Positions 1,094-28,878 of a stretch of 64,000 bases of DNA are shown one piece after another. The number at the start of each line of letters is the position of its first letter. The first letter of the stretch is position 1. The position numbers and the translations under genes are program-made. Origin of the DNA: Selaginella moellendorffii (Eukaryota > Plantae > Lycopodiophyta). The notes under the pieces were generated by a model. It worked only from the letters and a program-made list of their open reading frames with translations. It had not been told where the DNA came from and did not search any database. The stretch lies in NCBI RefSeq assembly GCF_000143415.4, contig NW_003314262.1:4586389-4650388 (forward strand), in the 5' to 3' direction.

Positions 1094-2050
1094 GTGGGGG
1101 TTTAACACGTTTAAGTGTTACTTATATATTACATAATTTTATAATTGTTTATAATTGTTTTTTGCTTGTCTATGACAAATGTTGCATAAGTTGGGTCTTT
1201 TTTCTTTGGATGCCTAAGTTTAAATGTAACTCTATTTTGCCTAAACTTCCTTCTTTTGCTTTGTCTAGGAAGATATAGAAGATAAAATATTTACCTTTTC
1301 ATCACTCCCCCATAACAAAGCTATTGTCTGTTCTTAGGTATGCTTTGGTGTAGATCATCGAGTTTTTGACACATTTTCTAATTTTCCTAGTCAAGCATTG
1401 CAATGCCCTAATCCAGCGATTGATGCACTCTGGATGTGGAAGCTAAATTCTACTGTTAAATTCTTGGATTATACAGCGTTGATAATTTTGCTTGCCCATG
1501 ACTCCATCCACTTTCTTAGTGATTGTTTTCAAATAACTCAAGACCTATATATGGTATTTTGTTGTTTCTTTGTCTTTTACCATCTATATTAGCTTGTCAA
1601 CTGGCTGCTTGTCTCCTCCTTTGATGTGTTGAGTAAGCTTCTCTATAAAGCTTCAGATTGCTAGCTCACTTGGCTAATTCATAATCTTGTGAGTGAAGGG
1701 GCAACTATCCTTGACTTTGTAGTGCTAATGCAGGGTCTTTGTTATTGTGGCTACCTCATCTTGCTAAACTAATCAGCTGAGAGGGTGTCATTATTGAATG
1801 CATAGGTGGACTAAAGAAGATTAAGCCCGTACTCTTTCCATTCACCTAGACCCTCTTTTGTAGTCTCATCCTCTTCATCCTGGTGAGTTTCTTGGCCATG
1901 ATCTTGGCCTAAACTCACCTCATTGGCTGTATCTACAGCCAATGGTTTTGTAGCATCTGTAGGCACATTGTGTGTCAGAATTTGTGGCCTAAGTTGTGGA
2001 ATTTCTTTCACAACTTTAGTATTCATCATTTGTCTAGTGTTGTCCATTTG

Positions 2051-2638
2051 TGTAGCACACCCTATCTCTCTCCCCTTAAGCCAACTGGAAAAAAGGCAAT
2101 TGCTTGATAAGAGAGCCCTTAGTGGCTATTTTATCCCCATTTATCCCCCAAGGTTCCAAGGATCCATGGTGACAGTATATCTAAATCTCATCCCATGATC
2201 ACATGCGCTACACTCACCCCCCTTTCAGAGATGTTAATGTCCTCATTGACTATTGACTAACAACCCCTACTGAGCCAAGAGGAACTAGCACCTCCATTTC
2301 CGCACTCAATCTACCAATCCTTCCATTGTGTAGACTAGCTATTCCATATGAGGTAACTAGTCATCCACCCGTACTGCAGTCCTATGGTGGATACCTTCGT
2401 TCGTGGATACTCCACATAAGAGGAAGGACGTACGCATGGATGCCCAATACATACGATTTCAAATTTAGGGGTAGGAATATACCTTGCTCAAGGGTATATT
2501 ATATTTTTAAATAGCCACTAATCAATGGGAATCGAACCCGGGAATCGAACCCGTGCCATTTGCTCCAATACCAACTGTAGCGCACCTTATCTCTTCTCCC
2601 TTAAGCCAACTGAAAAAAGGGCAATTGCTTGATGAGAG
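2051..2638 (-). mobile_element. Second TRIM copy (5' LTR runs into assembly gap)
   Basis: Reverse-complement match to 187-849: 3' LTR at 2051-2212, then PPT, interior and PBS; 5' LTR from 2576 into the Ns. Confidence 0.88.
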
Positions 2639-4750: not shown

Positions 4751-5739
4751 CTACCATATTTGATCCCAAGTTTGCTCGATGTTGCGAGTAGCCATATCTA
4801 TTTGATTTGTTCTAGGGAATGATGATAACATAATAAATGATCCAGCAATGTGCCCAAATCCAACCTTTGTGAAATAGGTATAAATAGCCATGTTGAAGTT
4901 ATAGGTTGAGTGCACCCGATGACTCTGCTTAAGATGGCAAAGTGGAATTTAAAGATGTTAGGGTCCTTTCCAAGCCATTTCACCTAACACCCTACTAATA
5001 TTTTGTTCTTGAGCTTGGATAATAGTCTCACATACTCGCTCATTCAAGATTGTGTTGGCCTCTAGCATAGTTACCACCTCATTTTTGTGACCTTCAACAA
5101 CAGCAATATGTCTGCCATTTCCACCACCAAGATCTACCCCACCACCTATGGCACTAGGTGCCTTATTTCCACCACCAAGATCTGCCCCACCACCTATAGC
5201 ACTAAGTGCCTCATTTCCACCACCACCAGCAACTTCTCCTATACTATAGATAGGTTCTACATTTCCGCACTCTCTAGAACCATCTAGCTCTTACATGTTA
5301 ACACCTAAATTAGGATCAACTATTACTTGGACCTAGACACTATTGCTCCCACCATAGTCTTCCTCCAAAGTAGCTCCTTGAACTTGTACCTAGGGTGCTC
5401 GTTATATATAAGCGTGAAGTAGTTAGGAATGATTATAAAATCATGTAGTATATAAATAACACTTAGACGTGTTAAGAAAAAACCCCATTCACTGTTGTAT
5501 GCATTTGTATTAAATTAACCACTTTTTCTCTCACCTATGACTATTTATACAAAGTAGAGTTGAGAGAGTGATATATGTTTATCCTTACTCATGCCTTTAG
5601 GGTTTGAGGCTGAGTTCTCTTTTATTCCTTTCTTCTCTTTTCTACATTTTTATCTCTGTTTATTTGTTACTATTTTATAGGCAAGGGCAAGAACGTGAGT
5701 ATAGGTAGAAAAAGCCTTACTCACTTTTGGCAATAATGG

Positions 5740-6810
5740 TAGAACTATTGGCTTTAATATTGCCACAGGTGCAATATTATTCTAGACACAATATGATAAA
5801 AAAGATCATCCTATCTACTATGCCAGCAAATGCTTAAATCCTACTGAGCATAATTACACAACTGTAGTTTACGCTTTAAAAAAATTTAAGCATTATCTTT
5901 TGGAAATAAAAGCAATTGTCTTTATTGACCATAAAGCTCTTTTATATCTTATTAATAAGCCATTGTTTGGCTAACTAGATGGTTTTTACTATTACAAGAA
6001 TATAATCTTGAAATAGTATATAGACCTGGAAAATTTTATAAATAGGCTAATTGCCTAAGTTGCATCATTATAGGAGGGTCACCTAATACTAAAGTAAATG
6101 AACTCCCATATGCTCATTTATTTGTAATCTTTATGCTTACCACTTGGTTGGAAGATATACAAATTTATCTTTCTACACACCGTTCCACCTCATTATAGCT
6201 TACGAGAGAAAAAGAAGTTTTTTTTTTTGAGGACATGACATTACTCTATTATAGGGGAGTGCCTATATAAATTAGACATCGATAAAACATTAAAGAGATG
6301 TGTTTATAAGCAAGAAAAAAAAAAAAATCCTAAGGGAAGCACACTTAAACTTATCAGGAGGCCATTTTGCAAATGAAATCACTACTAATAAAGTCTTATA
6401 AGTAGGGCTATGGTGGTTTATACTTGGAAAGATATAATAACTTTTTGCAAAAACTATGACATTTGCCAAAGGCATAAACTACTACCTAAAAAGTGAACTA
6501 AATCCATATAAAACATTTCATAAATGGGGATTAGATTTTATAGGACATATAATGACAAGAAGTAAGAGGAATAAATACATTTTAGTCACCATTAATTATA
6601 TGACTAAATAGCAGAAGCTATACCTATAAAACAAGCCTCAACTACTAACACTACCAAATTCCTCTATAAAAATATTATTGTAAAATTTGGTTAGAAAATG
6701 GAATGGTTTATTTATTTTGTTTAAAATATCAGGCTCAGGAATGGCTGAAGTGCACACCTTAAATGGGGATGATATTGCAATAATAAATTTAAATCATTTA
6801 AGGAAGTACT
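5740..6810 (+). pseudogene. Decayed Ty3/gypsy RNase H-integrase
   Basis: Translates to DHPIYYASKCLNPTEHNYTT..VVYALKKFKHYLL, then KWGLDFIG and NKYILVTINYMTK. AT-rich, with frameshifts. Confidence 0.75.
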
Positions 6811-8249
6811 ATGAAGTTATAAGCATAAATATTGTCTATATTTTAGTGTACAAAACTATGGATAAGTTCATGGATGAAGCCTTCACAAAGATTCATTGTG
6901 ATGAGTTATCTAAATGCATAAATAGGGTGGCCAACTAGATGAAGGATAGGGGTCTAGAAAAATTCTTCAAAACTATATCAAACTTTATAGACCTATAGGA
7001 AGGCAGATTGTTTCTTTAATTATAGGATCCTATAAAACTTGCTTTCAAAATGGATGAAGGGGATATTAAGATCACTCAAGATTTTATTTCTAAGCTTTTT
7101 ATCTCATCATAGAACTAGATAAGTGGAATTGGAGAGGAGTAGTCTTTCCTAATAAGCTCAGACAAGGATGTGTTCACTTAGAATAGAGGGAAAATACATC
7201 CCTGGGAAAGATTCATCTTTATACTAGAGAAACATTCATATATCTGAGTGCTTTCTTATAAGCGACTAAATTTTCCATTCTACTTTAGTCACTTAACCAC
7301 ACCTTCAACCATTTGGAGGAGTCTCACTCACAACCTTCGTAAGTTCTATTTTGGACTTAGGGACTTGTAAGCCCCAAGAATGGCATCCATACCACTCAAC
7401 CATTGCACTTGGTCCAAGTGATCCACATGTCCGATCCCATGACCGACACCTCAAGATACGACCGACATACCAGCCCGTTACGCTAAGGCCATGCCCATTC
7501 ACTTTGGTCACATAGGTAGTCAACCACCACCTACATCGTAGTCTCATCTCTCCAAAACTGGGCCATCCATCCATGAGTGACCATCCTAGGTCCACTCTTT
7601 AGCATCTTTAAAATGCCTACAAACATAAGGAATAGCCTTCCCCAATATCCTTTTTACAGTCTCTACTAAGTCCCTTTTCTGTCCATGGCCGTGTTCGCCA
7701 ACACTGCCACTAGGACAAGGCCCACAGGCCCAACCACTAAATCCCACTGTCCTCTGGGACTTCCTCATTATATGACCGTATCATTGGTCACTACACCAGA
7801 GGACCATTCCTCTTCCTTTCCATAATCTGGGACTTTGGGAGAACATTTCGGAACACCGTGGCCTTACGCAAGCCTCATGGGTACTCTCCCCACCTTCCAC
7901 CTTTGGGTGCTCTAGCCATGGGTTTAGAGCGAGGTTCCGTTGAGCCACGCTAGGTATCCAAATAGGTAATGCTACCCACACTTGGACTGAGAGCATCGGC
8001 CATTCGATCTCCCAAGGGAGCTAGAGCCGGCTCTTGAACACTTCACTAAGTTACCCCATTTGTTAGTCCATACTCACTCTAGGCTTGGACTTCCCAGTGG
8101 TTATCCCATACCCAACACTGGGTATAGCCTTCCTGGGCCAAATTGGCCTTTCCTGGCTAAACTGGCTCCACTGGAATCCTCCCTCTACTATACTTTTGGA
8201 GCTCACCAAACCCCCAAGGGTCTGGGAGACGAACGCTTTGGGCTTTCAC

Positions 8250-8748
8250 CCTCGGACTCAAACTCAAACTCGGACTCAGAGTCAGACTCGGACTCGGACT
8301 CGGACTCAGCCTCAGCCTTGGTCTCAGCCTCGGTCTCGGTCCCAGTCCCGATCTCGGTCTCAGTCTCGGTCTCGGTCTTGACTTCGGACTCCTTCTCGGA
8401 CTCCATCTCAGGTCCACCTTGGACTCTATCTCGGACTCCATCTTGGTCCATCTCGGACTCCATCTCAGGTCCATCTTGAACTCCATCTCGGGTCCATCTT
8501 GGACTCCATCTCGGACTCCATCTCGGGTCCATCTCAGACTCCAGCTCGAGTCCATCTCAGACTCTATCTCAAACTCCATCTTGTTCCATCTCGGACTCCA
8601 TCTCGGTCCATCTCGGACTCCATCTTTGGGTCCATCTCGGACTCCATCTTAGGTCCACCTCGGTCCATCTTGGACTCCATCTCATATCCATCTCGGACTC
8701 CATTTCAGACTCCATCTTGGGTCCATCTTGGTCCATCTCAGACTCTTC
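8250..8748. repeat. Tandem 6/12-bp minisatellite inside LTR (GGACTCCATCTC / GGGTCCATCTC units)
   Basis: Periodic array, directly visible; produces spurious SD/SP-rich ORFs in several frames. Confidence 0.92.
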
Positions 8749-10141
8749 CATGTGTCATGTGTTGGTCCTCTTGTGTCCCTTTTCTAGAGACTCACTTATT
8801 GCTCGCTTGGTGCTTGTTCCTCAAGCATTTCATTGGGAGTTCCACTCCTACTCTCGACCTTTCAAGTCGGAGCTTTTAGTCCAAACGTGTTACGCTTGTT
8901 TAGCTTTTGCTTCGGCCACTACCATGTGGCACCCTTTCAGCTCCATTTTGGGGCTTAGGGATTTGTGTCTCACAACTCCAACACCCACAGACGAAGTTCA
9001 ATGTCCTTATCGAACGATAAATTATTTTATAAAGTAATACCAGCATGTATTACCCTTCCTATCCTTGGCACCTAGCCAATATTTGTCAAGGGTTGGACAT
9101 CGAAGGCTCACCCTGCCTTGTCCATTCTCTAAGGAGCATAATCTCTCCAACTTAAAGACTTATTTGACTATTTGTGGTGGTTCTCTCCTTTTATTAGTTT
9201 AGTTTTTGCTAAACCGGTTAGAGACACTTTCTCTATCTTGATCCCACTACTCATTCTCGAGTAATCTTAGTTTCTATCAATATAACCATTCCTCTTTGGA
9301 ACTTTTAATATTGACTTCTCGAAGTCAATTTCCTAGGTGTCTCCGACACCTTTCATTGCACATATTGTGCAAACTCCACTTCTCCATCCTAAAAAGTTCT
9401 CTACTTGAGGGCACCATCCTCCTCTTTTCTATTTTGTGCTATCTTTAGCACTAAGTTCCAATTATCATAAATTGTGCTATAAAGCTCTATTTCGTTAAAG
9501 TGGGATTTATTTAGTAAAATGGGACTAGGTACAAATTTTCAAGTATTTGAAAATGACGTGAAATTATATGTTTTTTGTCCAGGGGCTAGACATATCTGGG
9601 GCATGGTGACTAGCGCGGTGACTTTGTGTCCAGACTGAGTCCATCTGGTTGTATAATAAATCTCATTGTCAAGGTGAACAAGCCGAATCTGAAGCTAAAG
9701 AAGAGCGATGGCATGCGCGCACACACTATTTGTTTGTTCATTGAGCGTGTGGTGAGCTTTCCAAGATGAACGTCATTCCTATTAGCCAAACATATAACTT
9801 AATGGTGAGAACATTTAGATATTATTCAATGTTATCTTTTTCTAACGAATCTAATTGTGAAGGTGTAGCAAGAGGCATTGCTAGTCTGGAGAAGTCATTT
9901 AACTCATTTGACCCTTAGTGTATTTTCATGAAACTAAATAACATTCATATTATTAAGGAATTTCTCTAGTACCTTTTTTTTACGACATAGAGGCTTGCAT
10001 TTCTTTCAAAGGTGATTTAGTAAAAGGCCTGAGGGCACATGCCATTCTATTTCTCAGACTGGTATTAAGATATACTAGTGCAAAGGGAAAAAGGTATTTG
10101 GTGATCAAGTAAATGGCATGAGGGCACACGCCATTATAAGC

Positions 10142-10400
10142 CTAAGCGCTAGTGGACACCTCCTTTTTGGTACTCTCAGCGGTACTATCATCCTTCTCCG
10201 GGTCAGTTGTTTTGCTTTGGATTGTTGTCTCTGATGTTACTGGGGCATTTTCGATAGTTGTTAATGTTGCCGTTTGTTCAGAAAAATGATCACCTGGAGT
10301 ATAGTACGAGGAGTTTGGAAGACTTATATATTCTACATCTTCACCTATCTCCTTCTCCGTCTCCTTTTCTGCCTCACTTACAGATTTTGTGCTTGCCATG
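10142..10400 (-). CDS. Possible small S/T/E-rich exon inside transposon, function unknown
   Basis: MASTKSVSEAEKETEKEIGEDVEY... is open in otherwise AT-rich sequence; no recognisable motif. Confidence 0.25.
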
Positions 10401-11193
10401 AGAACGCTCTTCACCCTAAAATATGGAGTTCGTTGTGTTATAAAAGGAAACCAACACACACGCTGCAAGGGAATGATGGTACATAAAGCACGTAAGCCCA
10501 CAATATGGGTTTATGTGCCATTAATATGGGCCACACGCCATATTATTAGATTTATGCACGTGTGATTGGTAAATGCATATGTCACATCATCTTTGTTTTA
10601 CCTCACACACTATATCAGGCCTAATGAACCATATCACATGTGCGCACATGCTATATATATGGAGAAGTATTATGCAAGGATAGAAAAATTCAATGCATGA
10701 TTGTGGAGAGCAATGGCATGAAGCCACATGCTAAATAACATTTTAGAGAAAGAATTAAAATAGAAACATGCAAACAGTACTGAGTGGACCAAGACTTAGA
10801 AGTGCACAATTGAATGAGGTATTTCTAATAAATATTTCACTCACCTCATATAGGAATGGCTACCACTCTCAAATGGCGTATCGCCTCATGCCATCACCTC
10901 GCAATTTGTTATAACAATCCGATGAATTCATATTCGGCTTGTTCACCTTGAACTTTAAGTAAGATTTGCTAGAACAACTAAGAATTTATACTTGTTATTT
11001 GTATCATCTCACCTAGGAATGGCATAAGGCCACATGCCATCACGCCTCCTCTGATTCAGATTCGGATTGTTCACCTTGAAATAAAATACATTAAAAACTT
11101 AGTAAAAGAATATTAATGAATCTCACCTTGAACCCAGGTTATGAATGCTCTTGCTGCATCTCTTGCATGGTCTGGCAAGGTGATGGTGGCACT

Positions 11194-14181
11194 CTACTTC
11201 CACATCCAACCATGCACAACATTATCCACCGATATGCTCATGCTGGGATCCCTTGGATTCAGCACCCATCTCTTTTCTAGGCAATCCTTCGTATATCCGG
11301 AACTTGGCTTGAACCACTCCACAGTTACATTGAAAGAGTTAGTTTCCGCATCCTCCTCTGCATCAGTGATGCAGCGCCCCACCCATTTCATTTGTTTTTT
11401 ATTACTAGGTCTGACAAGCACGACCATTCCTTTGCAGACCTGTACTGGATTGAATGCTGAATCCGGCTTCTTGTTCCTCGGCCCACAATAGTGATCCTCA
11501 ACATCGTTATCTGTCACTGCATTTCTAGAGGACATTGTTCCGCTACTATCTGGTGCTCTGGGTTCTGGCCAAAAGGACTCTTCCAATTCTTCATATACAA
11601 CTGGCCCATTTTGGATAGCAGATATAATCTTCTCCCAGTATTCGAGCAAAGGCTTGCACCTCTGAAAATAGGATTCTCCACCAAACACCAACCCCCTCTT
11701 CCAGAAGGCAATATGCTGTCTAATCCCGGCCACTATACTTTCCTGGTCTTTGAGTCCATTCGGGTGCATCGGCCATGGGGAACCCTGAGGAATCATAGGT
11801 TCCCCAGTTATGGGATCTCTCTTGAAGAGTTCAATGCCGTCCACTGGCAGCCACACTGTGTCCCATTCTCTCATCTTGTACCTCATCACTAGAGCACCGT
11901 CACGCATGCTGAAATGAAACTGAAGAGGCTTGGAGTGGCCAATCAGCATTTCGGATCCGTCCCTGATGTAGCCTCTTACAAACCCCTTAAAGTCTGGAAC
12001 CTCTGTCACAAGTGCAGCTTCAACAGTGCCTTTGATGCAATTTTGGAATTCATCGTAGAGTTGTGGGAGGGTGAGGACATTGGATCGCCGGAGGGACTCT
12101 GCCAGGTGACTGAACATGGCATCGACATCTTCATGAGTGTGCCCAACCATGAGAAAGCCAAGTGTAACCGTTTCAAATATGCCTTTGGCAACAAGCATCG
12201 CCAAGTACGCGAAGATGTACATGTTTTTGTTCTCACTGCCAGCATTGTCTGTTTGGAGCAGAAGATGGGGTGGAAGGCCATATCGGCCGCAAGAACTTCC
12301 TTGAGATTCTACTTCGTTTAGATGAGGCTGTGCATTCACCGGGCGACTAGCCTCGTCGGAATGGCATGAGGCCTCACGTGATAACCCTACAATCTGACGG
12401 CCAACATATTCACTGGGATGGCATGGGGCCCCACGCGATACTGCAAGCCTTTGCTCCTCCTCCAGCTGAACCCTGTATGGGGTTCGATCGACAAGGGCCT
12501 TATGCAAGGGTTGGCCGTTCAGCTCAGTCTGCGCACTTTGCAGAGACCTTAAGTGTTTTGCTAGGGATGCAATCATCATGTTTGCACCCCCGCCACCCCA
12601 TAGAGGTACAAAGAAGTTCCCATAGTTCTGGGCACCATGCCCATGAGCGATTATGCCAAACAGAGACACAGGCAGCTGCATGGATGAAGAGATTGCCTTG
12701 GGGGCAGGATTGAGTCGAGGTAAGCACGTCTTTTTCTGGTCCATTTTGTCGTGGATGATGCAGAGGTAAGAGTCAGGTCTCTCCATGGAGAGAATCCTGT
12801 TATGATAATATGTAGTCCTGCAGCTTCTCTGCTCGATGTTGTGGTCGAGCTGCCTTCTAACCAACGTCTCTCGCTCTTGAGTGCTGCAAGAATTCTTCGA
12901 CAAAACCATTTTGATAGCAGTGCACTCGTCACACTTTGAAAAGCTGGAGTACTTTCCTATACTCACATCCCTGAACCTGTTGCTCCACAATCTACTAAAT
13001 CTAGATTGGCTCAGCTTCCTGTAGCCATTACTCTGGAGTTCCCGATTCACATCTTCCAATATGGCCCCCTTGGTATACATGGAAGGGAGAACTCGTTGGG
13101 TGTCTCGTGTTCCATCTTCCAAGAGGCGGGTTTTATGTGGTTGCTGCTCGCTATATGTCTCGACAAACCTTTTGAAGATTGCCTCTCCATATACAACATG
13201 ACCCCTGGTTTTGTACGTACCGTCGTTCCCATGGGCTGCCTGTTGAACCCTTTGTTCCTCGAACTCAGTTTTGATTCTGTAGAATGTGGTTCGAGGGACT
13301 CCATAAATGATTCTCCATGCCTTCATGCAGACCAAACCCCTCTGGAAGACCATGCCCCCCACCTGATGTTCTGAAGCATCAACAGATGACCGTAATGCCT
13401 CATACACAAAATTGCGAGCTGCCTTCCAGGACAATGTCTTGTATCTTGCTCTCTCCTCTTCAATAGCATCCCAATCAGCATGTTGACAGCACCTCTTCTT
13501 GCAACAAGCAACTGTCGAGACCATTCGAACCTCCATCGCCATTTTCTGCCTTTTCGGTTCGTTGCTCAGATCCCTTTGGCTGCGCTTTAGGAAGGTGTAC
13601 TTTCTTTTCCCATGAAGAGATGTTTTGTCATCAATTGTAGTGGTGTTTGATTGTGAATCCTTCACATTCTCAAACACTAAGTGCCTCAATTTCCACCGCA
13701 CAATGCTTCCAATAGTCAGACTGTTTTCTTTTGTGTCAACAACCTCTAAAATCGCAACTCCAATATCATCCCAACCCAATTCTTGATTAGCAACCGCATC
13801 TCTTGGATCGACAACTGTGGCTAAGCCCTCAGCTACCACCTCCCCCTCGGGGTTGTTTAGAAACACCTTTGCCTGAATCCATGTAGCACGGTTCTTAAGA
13901 TCCACGGAGGGAACATGCGTTGCACTTGCGCTGTCCCCAACATCTGCTTTCCTCTGAAGATTTTTCAAGGCAACAACAACATTTACCCCGACAACCATCT
14001 CTCCTCGTTCAATAGCAACCACATTCCTATCGAAGACAGTCTCTACTGATATAGCAGCATTGACTTCCCCAAGCCTTTGACAGTGTATAACAAAGTTCCG
14101 ATCCATAGACACAATGGTCCCTTTTGCAACTCTCTTCCCACCATTCAAAATGTAAACCTTTTCCCTAACCCTGAAGGCCAT
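11194..14181 (-). CDS. DDE/RNase H-fold transposase (Sola1-like) with N-terminal TNP1-like repeats
   Basis: 995-aa ORF. Contains a CDEC zinc motif, CIIHDKMDQ, LQTDNAGSENKN and FLMVGHTHEDVDAMFS catalytic-type motifs, and lies between TIRs. Confidence 0.85.
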   Translation of the reverse strand: MAFRVREKVYILNGGKRVAKGTIVSMDRNFVIHCQRLGEVNAAISVETVFDRNVVAIERGEMVVGVNVVVALKNLQRKADVGDSASATHVPSVDLKNRATWIQAKVFLNNPEGEVVAEGLATVVDPRDAVANQELGWDDIGVAILEVVDTKENSLTIGSIVRWKLRHLVFENVKDSQSNTTTIDDKTSLHGKRKYTFLKRSQRDLSNEPKRQKMAMEVRMVSTVACCKKRCCQHADWDAIEEERARYKTLSWKAARNFVYEALRSSVDASEHQVGGMVFQRGLVCMKAWRIIYGVPRTTFYRIKTEFEEQRVQQAAHGNDGTYKTRGHVVYGEAIFKRFVETYSEQQPHKTRLLEDGTRDTQRVLPSMYTKGAILEDVNRELQSNGYRKLSQSRFSRLWSNRFRDVSIGKYSSFSKCDECTAIKMVLSKNSCSTQERETLVRRQLDHNIEQRSCRTTYYHNRILSMERPDSYLCIIHDKMDQKKTCLPRLNPAPKAISSSMQLPVSLFGIIAHGHGAQNYGNFFVPLWGGGGANMMIASLAKHLRSLQSAQTELNGQPLHKALVDRTPYRVQLEEEQRLAVSRGAPCHPSEYVGRQIVGLSREASCHSDEASRPVNAQPHLNEVESQGSSCGRYGLPPHLLLQTDNAGSENKNMYIFAYLAMLVAKGIFETVTLGFLMVGHTHEDVDAMFSHLAESLRRSNVLTLPQLYDEFQNCIKGTVEAALVTEVPDFKGFVRGYIRDGSEMLIGHSKPLQFHFSMRDGALVMRYKMREWDTVWLPVDGIELFKRDPITGEPMIPQGSPWPMHPNGLKDQESIVAGIRQHIAFWKRGLVFGGESYFQRCKPLLEYWEKIISAIQNGPVVYEELEESFWPEPRAPDSSGTMSSRNAVTDNDVEDHYCGPRNKKPDSAFNPVQVCKGMVVLVRPSNKKQMKWVGRCITDAEEDAETNSFNVTVEWFKPSSGYTKDCLEKRWVLNPRDPSMSISVDNVVHGWMWK

Positions 14182-14348
14182 TCTAAAAGTGCAGAAAAGA
14201 AGTTAAAACCATACAAAAAATGATTGGAGAATGGCCTAAATCATAACATACCAAACAACCTCAATAGCATGAGGCCACATGCCATTATTCAAACATGCTA
14301 TTGACACCCACGTGAAATTTCGCATTCACAAAATTGGCATGAGCCCTC

Positions 14349-17300
14349 ATGCCATTAGTGGTACCAGCTGCTAGCTTTTCATCTGTCAGCTCTAATTGTT
14401 GTGCATTTCTGAACAGGCGAGGAATTGCGTTCTTCTTCCAGCCACTGTCAATGTGGATGCAGAGAAGGGGGAGGAGCTCACCAGTTGGACTTTCGGGATG
14501 GAAGGCGAGGATCTGAGGCTGTACAACACAGATGGTGGGAGAAAAGAATGCATGGGGATCCTCATCCAAGTGACAGACACTCCATGCAGTTCCATGCAAG
14601 AATATGGACTGGCACTTGTGGTAGAGACAGTGTCTGCCTTCAAGATCCACCTTGCACATCCTAACAGCTTCCCGGAGGGGGGCAGCGGCTATGAGGAATT
14701 CCTAGAGGGAGCTAGGGAGAGGTTGTCCAGGAGGCCCACAATTTCAAAGACGCTGCGGGTCTATGAAGATCACATGGAATCCACGGACCTCACCTACGGC
14801 GATGTTCAAAAACTATATTCCAACATTGAGCCGTTGAGAGTGCCTCCAATTCGCGAAGCGAAGGGGAAGGGGGTCGATCTGGAAACTACCCCGAAGCAGA
14901 AAAGGGTGGTCAAGCTCAAGCCGACGTTCGACTCTCCTGCTCAATAAAAGAAGCTACTTGGTGATGCCATTGCCTCGGATTCGAACACTACACCCACCAA
15001 AAATAAGAGCCACAAAGAGCAGAAAGAGCAAGAAAAGGCAGCAAAAATCGTCGCAGATAATAGTACTTGTTACTATTCCAACAAAGTATATACAATCGAC
15101 GTGAGCCGTATCGACATCCAAAGCAAATACAACCACAGGCTAGTATCTGATGAGTGGGTGGAGAAACTGAAGCAGAAGATGCTGGCAAGTCCAGTAACAC
15201 CCGCCATCGCAGACGTGATCCCCTACTACCGAACAATGAAGGGCGAGACGAGGTTTCCAGACTTGATCAATAAGAAGGTGTTGGACGATCAGAACATCCG
15301 GTTCTATGCCGTCTCCGGGCAGCATTCTAGCTTGGCGATGCAAGAGATAGTTGTGGATATTATGATGGGCGAGGAGGTGAAGAAAGTCTTCAAGACAAGA
15401 GTTGTCCACCTGATAAAAGGCAACTCGCCCCTCCGATCTATCATATACATCTCCCACGCGCAGAATGTCAAGCAAGAAACGTGCTACAAATCGGGTCTAC
15501 ACGAGACATTGGCACGAACACGGAAGCTCTGGGTTCAACTGAAGAAGCCACAAAAACCAGGACAAGGACGTGCACTAGCAACTAGCGCCTGGCAGGTAAG
15601 CCTCGTTGCATGTGGCATAGCATGTGGCCTCACGCCATTTCCATTGCAGGAATTCTCGAGTCTTCTCTCGAAAACACTGGGGGTCAATGACACACTCAGC
15701 ATCCATAACATTCTACTCGCGACAAAAGTTGTTTTTGACAAATGGGTAGATGTGCTGAGGAGGTACCATGACGGGGAGTTGCTAAACTCAATGGGTGTGG
15801 AGGACAGCCGGAAGCCCAATGATTTGAAGCTCAACGCCTTGCGTTTCTCGCGGTCTCTAGACGACGACGACCTTCTGACAGTGGCTAATGCTCTTCTATG
15901 TGGTGAGGTAGTCTTCAACAAGACCAAAATGACTCTCGGCAATATTGTGACATACGAGGACTTGTGCACGACTCTGAGAGCTCGTGCGCTATTGAAGGAT
16001 TCGATCTTCGAGCAAGTGGCCGTGGAGAGGGTGAGCATCGACACCACGCAAGAGATGATGGAAGCGCTGGAGTTGTCAAATGAAGACATCGACGAGTACG
16101 TGAAGGGGGCCCCCAAGTTCATCGATCTGCTGCGGGATGCCACGAAAAGTAAAGCTGAGAAGTTGGATCAGTATCCAAATTTCATTAAGAGGGATGTCGA
16201 CCGCCGACTTCAGAAACAGCTCAACCCCGCAGCAGAGGCCTATCGAGAACCTTACCGGGTATACGTGAATTCGGATGAGGATCAAAGGTGGAGGAGCATT
16301 GTTTCCCGCAGAGATGAGCAAGTCAAGAACATCTTTTGTGTGATGGACTTCACAAACGAGGAGATCACTCATGCAGACAAAGTCAGCTCCATCATTGACT
16401 TAATGGTGGGACTTGCGAAGGTGGAATCTTCAGTATGATCTACGACTCCGAATCCTATCACAAGTTCTGGAAAGCCTTGAACGAGGTGAAGGCTCGGTTG
16501 AAAGGCAAGGAGATGCGGGAGATCCATGGGATAATGGCTAAGAAGAAGATACCAACGAATGTCCGCATCTTCACACTCGCCCTTGTTATTGGTCCTGCAG
16601 CAGAGTGGGACTGGAGTGACTTCCCAGCTTCGTTCGACAAGGCCGATCGAATTGATTTGAGGGAGGTCAATTTACCCGTGCCTGAGGAACTGAAGACGGC
16701 TATGGAGCTTTCGAATCCAAAGAAAGAAGAAAGCTCCAGGTGCAGCATGGGAAATGCTCAGTTGGGTCTTCAACGCAATAGCGGGTGGGTCACCTGCTTC
16801 CGACTCCAAGAGCAAATGCATTGTCGAGTACAACTGCGGCGGACTATTCTTTTGAGCCGCACTACTCAAGGGTGTCCCGTGTGTTGCGGTGACAAACTCC
16901 ATTGAAGAGGTGACTTCAATAGAGTATATAATTACAGTTGCCAAAGAAAAACAGTATCTTCTCTGCGAACCTGGTGAGTACGCACTTTAAGTTTAAATGT
17001 TATCTCACAAGCTCTGTATGTAGGAGCGTGGCCACCCCCAGATGCTGAAACGGCATTAACAGCTACTGTTGAAGATACCCATGTTGGGCCGAGCTCACAA
17101 CCTGCACAAGGTAAGGTCACGTGAGGCCTCACGCCATTTTGATTATAGATCATTGTGAATATTCAGACACGAGGACTGAAAAGCACACTGGTGGCGCGTC
17201 GAAGAAGGACAAACAGACAAGCAATAGGAAAAAAGGAGGTACAAATTATATTTGCAATGGCGTGTGGTCTCATGCCATTCCTTGCAGGAGACACTTCTTC

Positions 17301-17948
17301 AAAGGCAAAACAGGCAAGCACCAGCCAAGCTCAAACTGACAGTGGTCATAAAAAGCGAAAGCACATTGGACAGTCGTCGGGATCAGAGGCGTTTGATTCG
17401 AAAAGGAAGAAGGGCAACGAAAAGATGATAGGTAATGCCTCGCGGTTATGGCGTGTGTGCTCATGCCATTCATTGCAGATCAAGGGCTGAGTGAAAGCAG
17501 CCAGTCACCACCTCCTGACTCAGATTCCTATAGCGGACTCCCCTTCCCCAATCTCAATGGAGAGGTACAATGGATGAGGGATGCTTTTCAAGTCAGGGCC
17601 ATGTTTTTCTCATCTCGTCGTCTTTGAAGGGTGCAAGAACGTGCAGAAACCATGTTAAGACAGTCGGGTGAGGATACAGTCCTAGATCATGCACTAAAAC
17701 AAGCTATGGATGTCTTGTATTTTGAGATGGAGACTCGGCCAGATGATTTTCCCAAGATGGTCCTGGAAGAACAAGCCATCCAGCCTGAGCAGCCTATGGA
17801 AGAAATGCAGGAGGGGGATGAGGAGCCAGAGAAAGATAATGAGCAGGAAGAGCAGAAGGACGAAGAGGAGGACGAAGAGGACTTGGATGGTCCTCACAAT
17901 GGTGACGATCACAATAACGACGACGAAGATGATGACGACGATGGCTAG
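14349..17948 (+). pseudogene. Transposon accessory gene, 5' part: ParB/Srx-like domain, degenerate N4/N6 methyltransferase-like fold, acidic region
   Basis: ORFs 14396-14947 and 15101-16438 are in frame across a single TAA. Contains the ParB-like FYAVSGQHS motif, frameshifts at ~16435 and ~16725, and the segment CIVEYNCGGLFF*AALLKGVPCVAV. Short GT-AG introns at 15596-15649, 16974-17023, 17111-17148, 17239-17287 and 17432-17478. Confidence 0.6.
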
Positions 17949-18279
17949 CCTGAGGTGGCCAAAGAGCAGCGGAGGAAGGTCATACAAGACAAACCATCAG
18001 GTAAATAATAGTACATCCATTCCTAACCTTTTACCATTTCTAACATTGTCCATGTAGGTCGCAGAGCAAATGGTAAGTAGAGATTATTCAGTTGAATTAA
18101 GATACAAACTCTAGCCTTTAGTGTCGAGGAAGGATAGTGCCAAGCAAGGGTCGAAACGTATGTCCAATCCTTTAGAATCAGCAGTGCGCCCAAGTGATAT
18201 CGGTCCTAGTTCCTCAATAGCAGTTGATGGTAAATACAGTATAGTCGATTCAATGTGCTAATGAGTTTGTTTTTAGTAG

Positions 18280-19774
18280 CCAGTAGGGAGGATACCATCT
18301 CAATCGAAGGGAGATATTTGGACATGCATATGGATCCGCCAGTGGACTCTACTTGCCTGCAAGAGTCATCAGAGCTGGTGGAGGCTACTATCCATATCAA
18401 TGCCAAACAAGCTGACCATGCTCCACTTGATGCTGCCCATACCACTGAGTCAATCTTGTCCACGTATCCAACTGACGGTGACCAGGCGCCATTGGACCCG
18501 CATGAGGCCGCCCCAGCCGCCGAGCCGGTCGTATCCTCATTTCCAACGGACTCAACGTGTGCCCAATCGTCTGACTACGCGCCGTTGGAACCTCCCTACA
18601 CCGCCCCTGCTGCCTGTTCGGTCATGTCCACTTTGCCAACGGAGGCACCAGCTGAAATGGCGTGTGATCACATGCCATCGGAACCACCCCATGCCACTAT
18701 TGAGCCAGTTGTACCAAAGTCTACAGCTGAAATGGCATGTGCCCACACGCCATTGGATGCAATTGACCCCACATGGCAAAGGAGAGTATTTCCGCCCTTC
18801 ACGTTTCCTCGACTAAAACCCTCTCAACAACCATCGGGAGCACCATTCGCTAATATTGTAGATGGTAAAATTGACTTGTACCATTTTTTATGCTGACGCA
18901 TTTCATTTCAGAGTCACGGCAAAGGTACTGTATCGTTTTTGATCTAAACGGTGTCCTTTTCTCCCATGAGCGTGGCTCGTCCTCGAATGTCACTGCACCC
19001 TCCAAAGCCTGCAGTCGCAAGTTGGTCAAAAGAGACAGATTCACATTAATCACACGGGAGAAACTGCGGGATCTAATAATGACCATGCGACACTTAAAAC
19101 AGAGGGCCGGGTTCAATTTGCAATTGGGAGTTTGGACATCCATGATGCGCCACAATGCATTAACGTTGCTACAGATGATGCACGATCAGACGCGAGTAAT
19201 ATTACCATTTGACTTTCTCCTAACGTAGGAGGATTGCTTGACTATGGTCCATGTGAGGGGTAGCAAGCCCATCTTCGTCAAGCCAGAGGCTGTAGTGATG
19301 AACCGGACTGCTAGGTCAAGTGAAATCCTCATCATCGATGACTCGCCGATTAAAACTACAGCGAACATGCACACATATGCAGTGCACCCCATCTCTTGTA
19401 GTATGGAAACTAGGGAGAAGAAACCGTATGTTTTGGGGGACCTTGCAAAACGGCTTGGAGCGATGGTGATAGAGAACCGGCCAGTCCAAGAGGTGGCTGC
19501 AGAAATCAACCAAATGGCAGATGAAACGGTATATCAGAAGCCATTTGATCGGACAGACACCAGTCATCATTTATGGCATGTATATTGTCTAGCCAAGCAC
19601 TATCCGCATCTCCATAATCTGCTCAACCGGATGGGTTCTTCAACCACTGAACATGAGTGTGGACGTATTAGAGAAGAGATGGCATTACTATTGGGTTTAA
19701 ATCCTGATAGTGTGGAGAGTGATGAAATTCCAAAATTATTGTATAGGCGTTGGAGGCAAAAAATAACAGTCTGA
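18280..19774 (+). pseudogene. FCP1/NIF-type HAD phosphatase-like domain preceded by a Pro-rich region (probably the 3' part of the accessory gene)
   Basis: Motifs CIVFDLNGVL, GVWTSMMRHNA, KPIFVK and ILIIDDSPIK..N..AVHP. Intron 18865-18911 joins it in frame to ORF 18255-18896. Internal TAG at 19226-19228. Confidence 0.75.
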
Positions 19775-22700
19775 GATGGCATGTATTTATTTAAAAATGT
19801 AACTTATTATGGCATGGGGTTCCATGCCATTGTATTAATATTAAAAGACAATTCTTTGAGAGGATTTACATTATACTAGAAGTGTTACAGCATGTTATTG
19901 GAAGTCTATGAAGTTGTTTTATTAATAAGGGGAAAGTAAAGATTGAATAGGGACTTGGGCTCCACCTAGACTCAGAGCAACTGAGCCAATATTAAAAGGA
20001 TGGAAAGAAATTGGACGACGATGACAAGGAGAAGAGAGAGGTGAAGCAGTGGCAGGGGGAGGAGAAGTGATTGAGTAGACATTTCCTTGTTTAAAATAAA
20101 ATGGCATGTGCCTCAATGCAGTTGAATTTTGTTATATTTATATACTATATAAAGGTTTGGAAACCTTATTTTACAAGTGGGATAATGACAATTCCCACTT
20201 TAACGAAATAGAGCTTTATAGCTGTCCACAGCCGTATCATTTGGCTACTTTGCCACTCTCTCCCTTAGAGGTTTCACCTTTGCCAAATTAGAGCATTTGA
20301 GAATCCATCCTTAGAAACACACTTCCTTTCCCACAATCCTTTAGCATCCAACACATTAGTGTTTCTTGCCTAACTTTGCCATTTGGATTCCTTCCAATGA
20401 ATTTCATGGCCCACACTTGGCCACTAGCGGTTTGCTTCTATCCATTGATTATTGCACCAAGTAACATAAGATCACTACCTCCATTCTCGAGGTATCCTTT
20501 TGGTTCCATAGCAAAGGCTCTACTTGTTGAGTCTAGAGGGTACTCACCCCTAGTACGTCTCTTTAGCATTTTTTGTTATAGGCTTCGTCCACGGCCCAAC
20601 TTTGCGACCCTCCCATAAGTCTTTCCTAAAGATTACTTTCTTAGACTCATTATACCATTGTTTTGGCACAATTAATTTCCCTTTTGGTGTCCTTCCCATT
20701 TGGTCACCTTGACCAAGCCACACTATTATCAATAGTTAAAATCAACACTTTGAACTAAGAATTATGTTTCTTAACCCAAACAAAGACATTATCCTTGTTT
20801 AGCCACAAGATCACCTAATGATCTCATCTTGATCCCTTAACAGATACCAATAAGAACTAGGTCTTCTAGACTTTTTAAATTATTGACTATAACCCCAGGG
20901 GCATCCCCCACACTTGGCGGTGTGCCCAAGCCAGCCCTTCCAACTAAGGATCTATCTTTTTGGCATCACATGTTTCCTTCAGTTATTCTCCTCCAGATTA
21001 AAAGGATAGCTTTGCACTTTCTACCATGCCTTAGCAAGTATTCTTAAGGATGAACTTACCCAATAGCCTAGAGAGTGGTTCTTCAATCCAGGTACGCTCA
21101 CTTTGTAATCCCATACACCGAGATTATCGTTGTTACTTATGGGCCTTTCTATGCCCATCACTAGCCTTGCCAAAATCCTTTTTTTGGCTTTGTCCAATTC
21201 AGATAGATAGACTACTCCCATCTCCGCAACTTTGAACATTAGATAGCACTTACTACCCATCATTTGTTAAAGACTTAGTCCCTCAGGTCTTATCTAATGC
21301 CTTCATAACACCAAATACCACCTCTTGGTGTTTTAGAGTGTTTGGGTGTTCTAATGATAGCCTCTTTCAATGAGCATTCCCTTTACGACATTGACTTGTT
21401 ATATCGTAGCATAAGCAATTTATCCCCCATAAGGATACATCCAACTTCCCTATCCCAATAAAAAGTTTTAAGTAGTTACTTTTTATTAGTTTAACCAATT
21501 ATTTTGCACTTTTTGCTTAGTTGCCTTATAATGGTCAAGTCCTACAACTCATTGCTGGTGTTTCCACACCTCCATCATTATTTAGGTCACTACACTCCAA
21601 CTGCATGCCTTTTAGCTTAGGCTATGCCATTTCTATTTCCATTAGAATTCCTTTGGGAAGGGGTTCTCATGAACCTGCCAACTTGAGCTCAAGGCATCAC
21701 GCCTTGGTGCATTTGATGTCTCTACACCATCAGCTCCACGAGTCTACCTTTATGACACTTCGTACTTGTGTCTAGGTCCTTGCCAGAATCAATATAGTTC
21801 TTTCTCATGCCAACTATTTATTAATACTGCACCATAGAGTTTACACACAACTTTGTGTCAAAGTTGTTTTCTTCTAGGAACACCTTTCCCATGACTTTAG
21901 TATAGCATATTCTGCCATCAATGAGATACCCACTGTTCTCATACTTGGATTTTATGATCCTCCCTATCTTTCGTGGGGCACAATACACCTCAATCCAAAT
22001 GCTTTTACCAATCCCTTAGGACCATTCCTTGACTTTACATGAGTCATCTAGTATTTTTGGATTTTGCTAATCCAATGACCTGTAAGGTCCTATTTTTGAG
22101 GTGCTAGCTCGTTGGAATACAACTTTGTGTATTCATGTCTTACTCACAAGGACCATCTTTGCAAATGTTACTCTAACACATAATTATTCCTCGTTTTCTA
22201 TAGGCTACTCTCGCTCCTTAGGACTATCCATCCATATGATGAGAATACCGTCTCATCCTTTGAGCACACCCCCAACTTCTTGAGTTTATTCCAACATTTA
22301 TAAAAGGTAGCCCCGACTACCATTTCAATGACTCGTGTCTTCATCCATATTTGACCTTTCACAGTCATTAATTCCGGTCTCAAATTCATGAGCACAAGCC
22401 TCAACTATATGAGGATAATTTTGTGACTCCTTTATTGTTTTGGAGTCTCTATCTTTCCCATGATCCCAACTATAGTTGTTTACCACAACTACATTAGCCC
22501 ATTTGCTAAGTCAAACACTCATTTGGATCACATCCTCAACTCTCTAAGGAAAACCTTATACTATTCCTAAGATCCTAAAATCGTTCCATTATTGGCCTTT
22601 TTTTATCCACCACCTCATCTACAAGTTCACATATGAACTGTAGTGGAGAGCCATGTCTTCTCGACTTGCTACTCCCTAAAGATAGCCCCACTCCTAGGAC

Positions 22701-27310: not shown

Positions 27311-28878
27311 CTATGAATCAAACACTGCTCCAAATGCCACGATCTTCTTTGTCTTGCACACGTCGCGAACGGCCTCCGTGAACTTCGCGTTGGACACCAC
27401 AAAGATGGCCTCTGCCCTAAACTCCTCGTAGCTCGCCAATGCGATCTCCGACTTAGGCCGCCCCATCTCCGCGGTGTCGTAGATCGTGTGGGAATGTTGG
27501 AATACGCGATCACAGATCTCGTCCCGGTGCTTCTTGGCGATCCAGACGACGTGAATGGCGACGCAATCGCTGCCAATGTGTGGGAGGATTGGGGCAATTC
27601 CAGCCCCAGTGCCCACGCAGATCACTCGGAAGAAATGCATAATACAGCACCCCTCACTCTTACGTGGTTGCCCCTTTGCCACGCTCACTCCTCGCGTCCT
27701 CCGTGGCGTGTTTAGTCACGCCCAGCTCTGCACCCTAAATGTTTATCATTAGGTTCCATTAAACTATGTCTTTGAAAGGGATTCTCTTAAACATCACGAT
27801 TGCATCGTTAAACTCCACAATTGCACCTAGGAGGCTGTTCCACAAGCAGCAGTCCCACTCGGGCATCTCAAAGATTTATCTCTTTAATTTATAATAATGA
27901 GGTGGCATGCGCATGTAAGCAATGAGGTGGCATGCAAATCCAAATAAACAAATGGGGCCCACCCTAAATAAGGGGGGGTGCTGTATTATGCATTCATTAT
28001 GACGATCAGAATATTTCCCTGCCTCCCAACGCGGACATGGACGCTCTGGCGCTCGATCAAGAACCACGAGTAGAACACGAGAAGGAGACAGGCTATGGCG
28101 ATCGTAGCGCTGGCGATAGAAATTCCTGACAGATTCCAGCGAGAATGGAAGAATTTCCTGAGCAAGATCGCCGTGAGGAGGAGGAGTGACCAGCCCAGGT
28201 ATCTGTGGACTCTCTCGAAGAGATTGTGGTGCCGGACCCTAACGATCGGCATTGCCAGGATCATCATGATCGAGAGACCGGCGACGAGCACGGCCAGCAT
28301 TGCGACGTTCGCGGCGTCGATTCCATGGGCAATGTGGCCATGATCGCCGATGGGGAGGATCAAAGCAATGGTCGTCCACACGAGGAGCATGATCGCGCAG
28401 CCCGTGTGGATCAGTGGAGCATTCGATTAAAGAAGTATTTCCTCCATGGGATCCGGACGACGATCTTGTAAAGCAGCAGCAACACCGTGCCGTTGCGGAT
28501 CGCCGCTACCGCCAGGAGATTCACAAGCGCCATGGCGGTGGCCAGCTCCGCGCGATTGACGCGAAGGTCGTCCACATCGATCGAGAAGAGGGCCGCGACG
28601 ATGGCAAGATTGACCGGGAATATCACGAGCCACCACACGTTGTAGAGAGTAAATCCAAACCTTCTTCCCCATCCAGCTCCCAGACGAGCGTGCTGCTTCT
28701 TCTCCACGATCGCATTGAGCCGCTTCTCGATCCGGGGCGTCGTGGATTCCTCATGGAGTTCTTGGGCGGCAAACTCCATGATTCTCTCGATGACAGTGGC
28801 AGAGCAGCAAAGCACCATATAATGCTGGAGACGCCAGACCCGCTCTCCGATTCTCCCTCTCTCAATTCCATCTTGCAT
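27311..28878 (-). pseudogene. TmpA-like / ferric-reductase-like integral membrane oxidoreductase (disrupted)
   Basis: Transmembrane segments with IHTGC and RHHNLFERVHRYLGW, NAD(P)H-binding RVICVGTGAGIAP, and a C-terminal GAVFDS. Frameshift at ~28411; the middle is replaced by an IR-bounded segment. Confidence 0.75.
27634..27994. mobile_element. 361-bp segment bounded by perfect 20-bp inverted repeats (MITE-like)
   Basis: AATGCATAATACAGCACCCC at 27634-27653 and its reverse complement at 27975-27994. No TSD seen. Confidence 0.55.

What the first reader, a model, noticed from the sequence alone, without database searches (positions are those of the whole stretch)
9708..20122. About 20 copies of a 22-bp palindrome confined to a transposon that encodes a ParB-like protein: candidate parS-like self-recognition or anti-silencing system
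Seen: ATGGCRTG-N6-CAYGCCAT, with conserved 8-bp arms, a fixed-length 6-bp spacer and variable spacer sequence, recurs from 9708 to 20101. It occurs in both subterminal regions, in the divergent promoter (14264, 14334), in introns, and inside coding sequence (12361, 12418, 18657, 18732). I found no full copy outside the TIRs. Fixed spacing with a free spacer is typical of a dimeric protein binding site. Known: bacterial ParB loads at palindromic parS sites and spreads along DNA; Arabidopsis VANDAL elements use VANC proteins that bind dispersed internal motifs to counter silencing. Inference: the element marks its whole length for its own accessory protein, for silencing evasion or for bringing the ends together. 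This is the best candidate for an undescribed system in the window.
Basis: partly seen in the sequence, partly recalled or inferred. Interest (0 to 1): 0.92.

Follow-up and report, generated by a model that had tools for sequence, protein, structure and literature searches.

The report
Plant transposon with ParB-type self-recognition sites
A DNA transposon, likely from a seed-free plant, carries 19 copies of its own 22-base mirror-image DNA tag and a gene whose product is predicted to fold like the bacterial DNA-gripping protein ParB, which likely binds those tags to regulate the element, an idea already proposed but untested for algal transposons.

Summary
Nineteen copies of a 22-bp palindrome lie inside a 10.7-kb DUF7869 DNA transposon (9482-20216), 15 of them in non-coding DNA. 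One correction: the spacer is not free; the site is a full palindrome, ATGGCRTGWGS/SCWCAYGCCAT. The divergent accessory gene is predicted to fold as a ParB N-terminal domain plus a ParB/KorB-type DNA-binding domain, followed by a possible methyltransferase relic and a NIF phosphatase-like domain. The arginine pair that bacterial ParB needs for CTP is replaced (GQHS), so a parS-style sliding clamp is doubtful. Related elements lack this motif but carry their own 16-22-bp palindromes (32 of 53 non-redundant loci). These are confined within the TIRs where both ends were found, and are densest around a decayed ParB gene in one relative. Best reading: a family-specific operator bound by the ParB-type protein (about 0.5); the transposase is the main rival (0.3). 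Binding and anti-silencing are untested, and this copy shows methylation-type decay. ParB genes beside inverted-repeat arrays are already described in red-algal transposons, and a ParB-methyltransferase gene in a brown-algal one. This is a new land-plant variant with testable protein-site pairs.

The parts
9482..20216 (.). DNA transposon, 10,735 bp, DUF7869 transposase clade; high-copy family (inferred)
   Evidence: TIR pair (I17); ends, empty-site joints and contig depth 45-96 vs about 2 on flank contigs in run X3
9482..9508 (+). left terminal inverted repeat (begins AAGCTC); likely 4-bp target duplication TATA at 9478-9481
20190..20216 (-). right terminal inverted repeat; TATA at 20217-20220
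11194..14181 (-). transposase ORF, 995 aa, open; DUF7869 core with HDKMD/QTDN/HTHEDVD conserved; weak N-terminal Transposase_23 match
   Evidence: Pfam E 1.6e-42 and 0.019; alignment
14396..19774 (+). divergent multi-exon accessory gene (or genes); stop at 16853 and frameshifts at 16433/16720 are specific to this copy; status of the stop at 14945 unresolved
   Evidence: ORFs; family differences; single-protein homolog P0075
15080..15478 (+). ParB N-terminal-type domain (predicted); Box II reads SGQHSSLA
   Evidence: 7bm8 Z 9.9, rmsd 2.1, 98 aligned
15479..16003 (+). helical domain aligning with the ParB/KorB DNA-binding domain (predicted)
   Evidence: KorB 8qa9 Z 8.0, rmsd 4.8, 204 of 209 aligned over model residues 16-323
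16330..16950 (+). possible degenerate amino-methyltransferase relic (by eye only)
   Evidence: tail matches Selaginella P0056, E 4.5e-4; no profile hit for the 16727-16984 piece or P0056
18926..19400 (+). NIF/FCP1-like HAD phosphatase-like domain, DLNGV motif
   Evidence: Pfam NIF E 0.018 here; E 7.3e-17 in homolog P0075
9708..11040 (.). 7 palindromes in the left subterminal region: 9708, 10024, 10113, 10633, 10713, 10873, 11019
12361..12439 (.). 2 palindromes inside the transposase ORF (12361, 12418), in a variable-length insertion of the core
14264..14355 (.). pair of palindromes between the divergent genes (14264, 14334)
   Evidence: a pair upstream of the transposase also occurs in L046, L064, L068, L070
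15596..15649 (+). predicted 54-nt intron holding palindrome 15617; intron position conserved in homologs
17111..17478 (+). three predicted short introns (17111-17166, 17239-17287, 17432-17478), each holding one palindrome (17116, 17257, 17448)
   Evidence: run X8 shows an extra motif-bearing intron unit near 17326 in other copies
18657..18753 (.). 2 palindromes in a tandemly repeated low-complexity coding stretch (18657, 18732)
19809..20122 (.). 2 palindromes in the right subterminal region (19809, 20101)

Best explanation
The 19 palindromes are confined to the transposon and are likely a family-specific operator bound by a dimer of the element's own ParB-type accessory protein, which would act as a self-regulator of the element. 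Shown: a symmetric 22-24-bp site, element-confined, mostly non-coding, with a pair between the divergent genes, and different sites in related families. Predicted: ParB N-terminal domain plus DNA-binding domain fold. Inferred: one subunit reads each half-site; bound dimers at the promoter pair and intron sites keep the element's genes transcribable, TnpA/VANC-style, and may carry the NIF-like and methyltransferase-like modules there; the protein would also serve deleted copies in trans. It probably binds as a stationary operator protein rather than a CTP-gated sliding clamp, because the CTP-binding arginine pair is gone.
For: Two-fold symmetry through the whole site with non-compensatory R/Y variation (A-T 7, A.C 6, G.T 4, G-C 1, other 1 of 19) fits two independently read DNA half-sites. 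Flanks of 10 of 19 sites share no similarity with any other site, so the motif is kept without its surroundings. The accessory protein model (pLDDT 71) matches only ParB/Srx proteins in the top 8 of 48,161 chains and aligns through the DNA-binding domain of KorB, pNOB8 ParB, Spo0J and Caulobacter ParB. The gene is open in the family contigs across 14979-17480. In relative L046 a decayed ParB+helical gene (iE 5.7e-8 helical; 0.017 ParB-N with GGQHT) sits between two dense palindrome clusters that are collinear with those of L030. Relatives with accessory genes carry many sites (L030 38, L046 25) and compact ones few (5-8; but L072, with NIF fragments, has 3). Red-algal ParB genes also sit beside inverted-repeat arrays (bioRxiv 10.1101/2025.02.11.637652).
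Against: Only 1 of 53 non-redundant related loci (L046) has a detectable ParB gene, yet 32 carry palindrome sets. Many contigs are short or decayed, so this is weak. Compact TIR-bounded elements L068, L070 and L053 keep the motif without a detectable ParB gene, which the transposase explains equally well. Motif groups follow the transposase tree. The DNA-binding-domain match is modest (Z 8, rmsd about 5, 10-16% identity) and rests on a predicted model. For the anti-silencing step: this copy carries methylation-type decay (31 of 36 listed differences from family contigs are C>T/G>A; CG 15/238, CHG 8/198, CHH 8/798), and CpG is not better kept near the motifs (0.58 vs 0.61).
Confidence: 0.5

Rival explanations
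1. The transposase itself binds the palindromes with its N-terminal DNA-binding region. They are TnpA-type subterminal sites for end pairing and transcriptional control, and the ParB gene is an unrelated passenger or helper.
For: Sites recur about 90-95 bp inside TIRs, as a pair upstream of the transposase and as a 3' array in compact elements lacking a detectable ParB gene. Motif type follows the transposase tree. The transposase has a two-helix-turn-helix-like stretch by eye (HTH_29 E 0.07 in P0005) and a weak Transposase_23 match. Spm TnpA's DNA-binding domain derives from transposases, and the AtMu1 transposase alone activates cognate copies (bioRxiv 10.64898/2026.08.24.746577).
Against: The TIRs, the usual transposase sites, do not contain the motif. 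Sites are also deep inside the element, in introns of the accessory gene. Compact elements L068 and L070 are 84-86% identical in transposase DNA to L030, and L068 keeps a remnant of L030's accessory region (by eye), so they may be deletion derivatives served in trans.
Confidence: 0.3
2. A true parS/ParB system: the protein loads at the palindromes as a nucleotide-gated clamp and slides along the element.
For: Best local match is CTPgammaS-bound Caulobacter ParB (rmsd 2.1). The Box I arginine and the Asn matching N136 are kept by motif position.
Against: The R103/R104 pair needed for CTP binding (PMC8367383) reads H-S/T in the window and all 9 homologs with this domain. No ParA-family hit among 9 ORFs scanned. 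Nucleosomes would hinder sliding (own knowledge).
Confidence: 0.1
3. The motif works as an RNA hairpin or splicing signal, or is a site for a host transcription factor.
For: Four copies sit next to predicted 3' splice sites of short introns.
Against: R/Y changes are not compensatory. At least six other predicted introns lack the motif. Most copies are outside predicted transcripts. At least seven other palindromes occur in related families, which fits an element-encoded reader better than a host factor.
Confidence: 0.06
4. A neutral by-product of tandem duplication.
For: 9708, 10873 and 11019 share flanks; 18657/18732 lie in a tandem repeat; other copies hold an extra motif-intron unit.
Against: Most sites have unrelated flanks. 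Position is kept while sequence changes across families, and 71 sites lie inside vs 2 outside TIRs in six relatives.
Confidence: 0.04

Closest known systems
Red-algal Plavaka (EnSpm) elements with PAG3 (Petroll et al., bioRxiv 10.1101/2025.02.11.637652; section 8 read whole)
   Same: Transposon accessory gene with an N-terminal ParB domain beside arrays of inverted repeats; self-binding proposed, untested.
   Different: Here a DUF7869 transposase in a likely land plant. No 2OG-oxygenase seen; instead a NIF-like domain and a possible methyltransferase relic. Palindromes are dispersed through promoter, introns and coding sequence rather than only in tandem arrays beside the gene.
Ectocarpus Sola1-1_Ec32 ParB-N4/N6-methyltransferase accessory gene (PMC12477816; passages read)
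   Same: ParB-like gene on the strand opposite the transposase, about 1,100 aa, proposed to bind and modify its own element.
   Different: Different transposase superfamily. The methyltransferase here is at best a relic with no profile hit. No palindrome is described in the passages read.
KorB/OB of plasmid RK2 and bacterial ParB/parS (PMC11790492, section 4 and passages; PMC8367383, one passage)
   Same: ParB N-terminal plus DNA-binding domain fold; palindromic operator at proximal and distant sites of a mobile element.
   Different: CTP-binding arginine pair absent; 22-bp rather than 16-bp site; no ParA or KorA partner seen; eukaryotic chromatin.
VANDAL/VANC (PMC5735166; passages read)
   Same: Family-specific motifs in introns, intergenic and terminal non-coding regions; some spread by tandem duplication.
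   Different: VANC motifs are 8-9-bp non-palindromic words on Mutator-like elements. No VANC likeness was found here, and no loss of methylation is shown.
En/Spm TnpA and its clustered motifs (bioRxiv 10.64898/2026.08.24.746577; abstract, main text parts 1-2 of 3)
   Same: Clustered family-specific motifs near the ends and promoter of a DDE transposon with an accessory regulator.
   Different: TnpA is a tandem-HTH protein reported as restricted to flowering plants, and its motifs are terminal. This element has AAGC ends and a likely 4-bp duplication.
Starship DUF3723 genes (bioRxiv 10.1101/2021.12.13.472469; passages read)
   Same: Nearest clusters by language-model features (0.96); a conserved accessory gene of fungal mobile elements.
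   Different: No alignment support (recognition value below the tool's threshold); a lead only.

Membership tests
Bacterial ParB/parS (ParABS, KorB) | ParB/Srx N-terminal fold | tested here: met
   7bm8 Z 9.9, rmsd 2.1, 98 aligned; top 8 of 48,161 chains all ParB/Srx; predicted model
Bacterial ParB/parS (ParABS, KorB) | DNA-binding (HTH) domain following the N-terminal domain | tested here: met
   8qa9 204/209 aligned, Z 8.0, rmsd 4.8; 5k5d 201 aligned, Z 9.3; Noc E 9e-4; moderate strength
Bacterial ParB/parS (ParABS, KorB) | Box II arginine pair for CTP binding | tested here: not met
   G-Q/L-H-S/T in the window and 9 of 9 homologs; mapped by motif position (consensus recalled); requirement from PMC8367383
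Bacterial ParB/parS (ParABS, KorB) | Repeated palindromic cognate site in cis | tested here: met
Bacterial ParB/parS (ParABS, KorB) | Specific binding and spreading | not testable with these tools
   needs DAP-seq, EMSA or ChIP
Bacterial ParB/parS (ParABS, KorB) | Homodimer | not tested
   no prediction obtained
Bacterial ParB/parS (ParABS, KorB) | ParA ATPase partner | tested here: not met
   no such Pfam hit among 9 element ORFs scanned
Algal ParB-accessory transposons (Plavaka PAG3, Sola1-1) | ParB-domain accessory gene inside a TIR transposon | tested here: met
Algal ParB-accessory transposons (Plavaka PAG3, Sola1-1) | Inverted-repeat units beside the ParB gene | tested here: met
   window 14264/14334/15617; L046 clusters 363-1009 and 5649-6031
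Algal ParB-accessory transposons (Plavaka PAG3, Sola1-1) | Fused DNA-modifying enzyme domain | tested here: inconclusive
   methyltransferase-like motifs by eye only; no hit in Pfam, PHROGs or NCBIfam for the tail piece, or in PDB sequences for P0056
Algal ParB-accessory transposons (Plavaka PAG3, Sola1-1) | Plavaka-type transposase | tested here: not met
   Pfam gives DUF7869, no Plavaka family; Sola1 not tested separately
VANDAL/VANC | Mutator-type transposase and VANC-like protein | tested here: not met
   DUF7869 transposase; accessory fold is ParB-type
VANDAL/VANC | Family-specific motifs enriched in non-coding regions and introns | tested here: met
   15 of 19 non-coding, p 1e-6; motif matrix across families
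VANDAL/VANC | Sequence-specific loss of methylation | not testable with these tools
   indirect signs give no support: CpG o/e 0.58 near motifs vs 0.61; copy decayed at CG/CHG
En/Spm (CACTA) with TnpA | CACTA/G termini and 3-bp duplication (recalled) | tested here: not met
   ends AAGC, likely 4-bp TATA; relatives AAC with 4-bp duplications in 3 of 6 exact, 1 near
En/Spm (CACTA) with TnpA | Clustered subterminal motifs | tested here: met
   7 left, 2 right
En/Spm (CACTA) with TnpA | Tandem-HTH DNA-binding domain | tested here: inconclusive
   by eye in the transposase; HTH_29 E 0.07 in one homolog; not folded

The most novel reading that the evidence does not exclude
Seed-free land plants harbour a transposon clade that uses a bacterial-type ParB as a nucleotide-gated clamp in the nucleus. 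It loads at family-specific 16-24-bp parS-like palindromes, spreads along the element and delivers a Pol II CTD-phosphatase-like module and a methyltransferase-like module to keep it out of silencing, with site and recognition helix co-evolving family by family.
Probability: 0.12. Interest if true: 0.9.

Novelty: new variant of a known kind. Interest (0 to 1): 0.58.

Why it matters
Few transposon-encoded self-regulators are proven (VANC, TnpA, AtMu1 transposase), all in flowering plants. ParB-carrying eukaryotic transposons have been noted in algae, but binding to their repeats was only proposed in the two papers read. This element gives a defined 22-bp site, a structural model with a DNA-binding domain, a family whose gene appears open, and several non-cognate palindromes from relatives as controls. 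The open question of whether eukaryotic transposon ParBs read their own palindromes therefore becomes directly testable. A positive result would add a bacterial-derived, long-site, family-specific DNA reader to plant chromatin biology.

Tried and rejected
No whole genome is held, so genome-wide enrichment could not be run. No RNA holder was listed with certainty. Run X20 (RNA is a guess) has contigs running into predicted introns, so it says nothing on splicing or expression. The single-sequence fold was useless (pLDDT 32). Word-indexed homolog searches for the accessory protein found nothing. PDB sequence searches gave no meaningful hit. No relative in viral contigs or phage records. The scan of bacterial genomes did not run. 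Whole contigs behind the loci are not held. hhalign of the short L046 ORF alone was weak (probability 1.8%). A free-spacer site and an RNA hairpin were rejected. TGT as target duplication was rejected. The two outside matches are not family sites: 63767 lies in a terpene synthase gene and 27703 in a separate small TIR element. The window motif in relatives: 12 of 80 loci have one or two 3-mismatch sites, none better. Of 14 proteins, P0059 and P0064 were dropped as spurious repeat matches before alignment. Three look-ups of earlier findings returned nothing. Reference 50 of the Ectocarpus paper is not held.


Full report
OBSERVATION. The motif is real. ATGGCRTG-N6-CAYGCCAT has 6 exact matches against 0 in each of 100 shuffles. 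At up to 3 mismatches there are 19 sites between 9708 and 20101 and only 2 in the remaining ~53 kb; 30 shuffles of the element give mean 0.07. In 38 symmetrised half-sites, positions not used for selection are conserved (G 34/38, G or C 33/38, outer A 24/38), so the site is a full palindrome, (A)ATGGCRTGWGS/SCWCAYGCCAT(T). The R/Y positions do not covary (A-T 7, A.C 6, G.T 4, G-C 1, other 1 of 19), which argues against a hairpin. 15 of 19 sites lie in the non-coding quarter of the element (p 1e-6), and 10 of 19 share no flank similarity with any other site.

THE ELEMENT. An inverted repeat joins 9476-9508 and 20190-20222. Family contigs of run X3 stop at 9482 and 20216, and host empty sites have six letters between 9476 and 20222. 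This fits an element 9482-20216 with a TATA duplication; a 2-bp reading is not strictly excluded. X3 contigs on the element have depth 45-96 against about 2 on flank contigs, so I infer a high-copy family. The minus strand holds an open 995-aa DUF7869 transposase (E 1.6e-42) with the three acidic core motifs conserved among 13 aligned proteins. Named homologs come from Riccia, Selaginella and Adiantum, so the host is likely a seed-free land plant (inference). That DUF7869 belongs near the CMC (Chapaev/Mirage/CACTA) group is recalled, not from a call.

THE ACCESSORY GENE. It runs divergently from about 14400 to 19774. The stop at 16853 and the frameshifts at 16433 and 16720 are absent from family contigs in runs X3 and X8, one sample; the stop at 14945 is unresolved. 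HMMER found 14 proteins, 12 kept. An Adiantum protein, P0075, joins N-domain, ParB-like, helical and NIF domains in 1,125 aa. An alignment-based model (pLDDT 71) matches only ParB/Srx proteins in its top 8 of 48,161 chains. The N-terminal domain fits CTPgammaS-bound Caulobacter ParB (Z 9.9, rmsd 2.1). Alignments continue through the DNA-binding domain of KorB (204 of 209 residues, Z 8.0, rmsd 4.8), pNOB8 ParB and Spo0J. So the architecture is that of a true ParB, not of a stand-alone Srx-type domain. However, Box II reads G-Q/L-H-S/T in the window and all 9 homologs with this domain, where Caulobacter ParB needs R103 and R104 for CTP binding (PMC8367383, one passage); this mapping is by motif position. 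A methyltransferase relic is suggested by eye only, with no profile hit. The NIF domain is weak here (E 0.018), strong in P0075, and lacks the second Asp of the DxDxT motif (motif recalled).

RELATIVES. One metagenome scan gave 80 loci, the best of 522, 53 non-redundant. None has the window motif at 2 or fewer mismatches. 32 of 53 carry three or more copies of one of seven other palindromes: 26 share AYYTRGTGGCCACYARRT (group M), and L001, L002, L007, L023, L049 and L067 each have their own. The other 21 are mostly short or decayed contigs. These patterns were derived from the same loci, so the counts describe rather than test. In six group M elements with TIR matches on both sides, 71 sites lie inside (46 kb) and 2 outside (69 kb). 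Positions recur: about 90-95 bp inside the TIR, a pair upstream of the transposase (as 14264/14334 here) and a 3' array. Motif type follows the transposase tree (kin share labels, so this is not proof of co-evolution). L046 holds a decayed ParB+helical gene between two dense clusters. L030 has the same clusters without that gene but keeps NIF genes. Compact elements L068, L070 and L053 keep 5-8 sites and show no ParB gene.

MECHANISM. A long symmetric site, kept in position while its sequence changes between families, is what a dimeric element-encoded reader predicts. Two proteins qualify. I favour the ParB-type protein (0.5): its fold class reads 16-bp palindromes in bacteria, sites are densest around and inside its gene, and the TIR lacks the motif. 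The transposase (0.3) explains the compact elements equally well, and transposases can be regulators (bioRxiv 10.64898/2026.08.24.746577; abstract and main text parts 1-2 of 3 read). The downstream effect is inferred by analogy with TnpA and VANC (PMC5735166, passages). Evidence here is neutral to negative. 31 of 36 listed differences between this copy and the family are C>T/G>A, concentrated at CG (15/238) and CHG (8/198) over CHH (8/798). CpG is no better kept near motifs (0.58 vs 0.61), although the element as a whole is less CpG-depleted than its flanks (0.27-0.38). KorB-type repression of the divergent promoter remains possible (PMC11790492, section 4 and passages).

COMPARISON AND NOVELTY. 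The idea is in print. Bostrychia Plavaka elements carry PAG3, a ParB-domain gene beside inverted-repeat arrays, proposed to bind its own element (bioRxiv 10.1101/2025.02.11.637652, section 8 read whole). Ectocarpus Sola1-1 carries a ParB-methyltransferase gene opposite the transposase (PMC12477816, passages). Iyer et al. mention ParB-HTH-methyltransferase fusions in algae and chytrids (PMC4738411, passages). Seven searches (listings only) showed no description of this land-plant clade, its palindromes or the NIF module. Repeat databases and bioRxiv supplements were not available. It works like a KorB/VANC-type self-operator system. It is not a member of ParABS, VANDAL or CACTA by the features tested. 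It is best filed as a new variant of the ParB-accessory transposons.

VERDICT. Real feature; interpretation partly supported; new variant of a known kind; interest 0.58. The most novel reading, a nucleotide-gated ParB clamp in plant chromatin, is about 0.12.

Noticed in passing
window 31658-32011, 57406-57777, 63506-63970: Three related terpene synthase gene copies (Pfam Terpene_synth E 1.7e-8 and 6.8e-6 for the two scanned; clustered). They hold the weak outside motif matches.
   Followed up: partly
window 27634-27994: Small element with 44-bp inverted ends carrying GTGGCRTG half-sites and one spaced near-palindrome (27703); possibly a MITE of a related family.
   Followed up: partly
P0056/P0070/P0071/P0072 (Selaginella moellendorffii): Annotated genes with the helical domain and tail but no ParB N-terminal domain, on two scaffolds; possibly a domesticated copy.
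   Followed up: no
run X24 contig at window 9484-9525; runs X3/X20 at 14263: Other families in the same organism share the TIR or a motif with different flanks, one with the motif just inside the TIR.
   Followed up: no
window 432-2638, 43958-47958: Several long inverted-repeat pairs (418, 214, 84 nt arms), probably other TIR elements.
   Followed up: no
window 8200-8750: Array of short GGACTCCATCTC-type repeats in the host repeat left of the element.
   Followed up: no
L030 2481-5090; L072 7052-9137: Relatives carry two tandem NIF-like genes opposite the transposase without a detectable ParB gene.
   Followed up: partly
window motif centre vs group M motif: The central 8 bp (GWGSSCWC) resemble the group M core GTGGCCAC while the arms differ; shared origin not tested.
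   Followed up: partly
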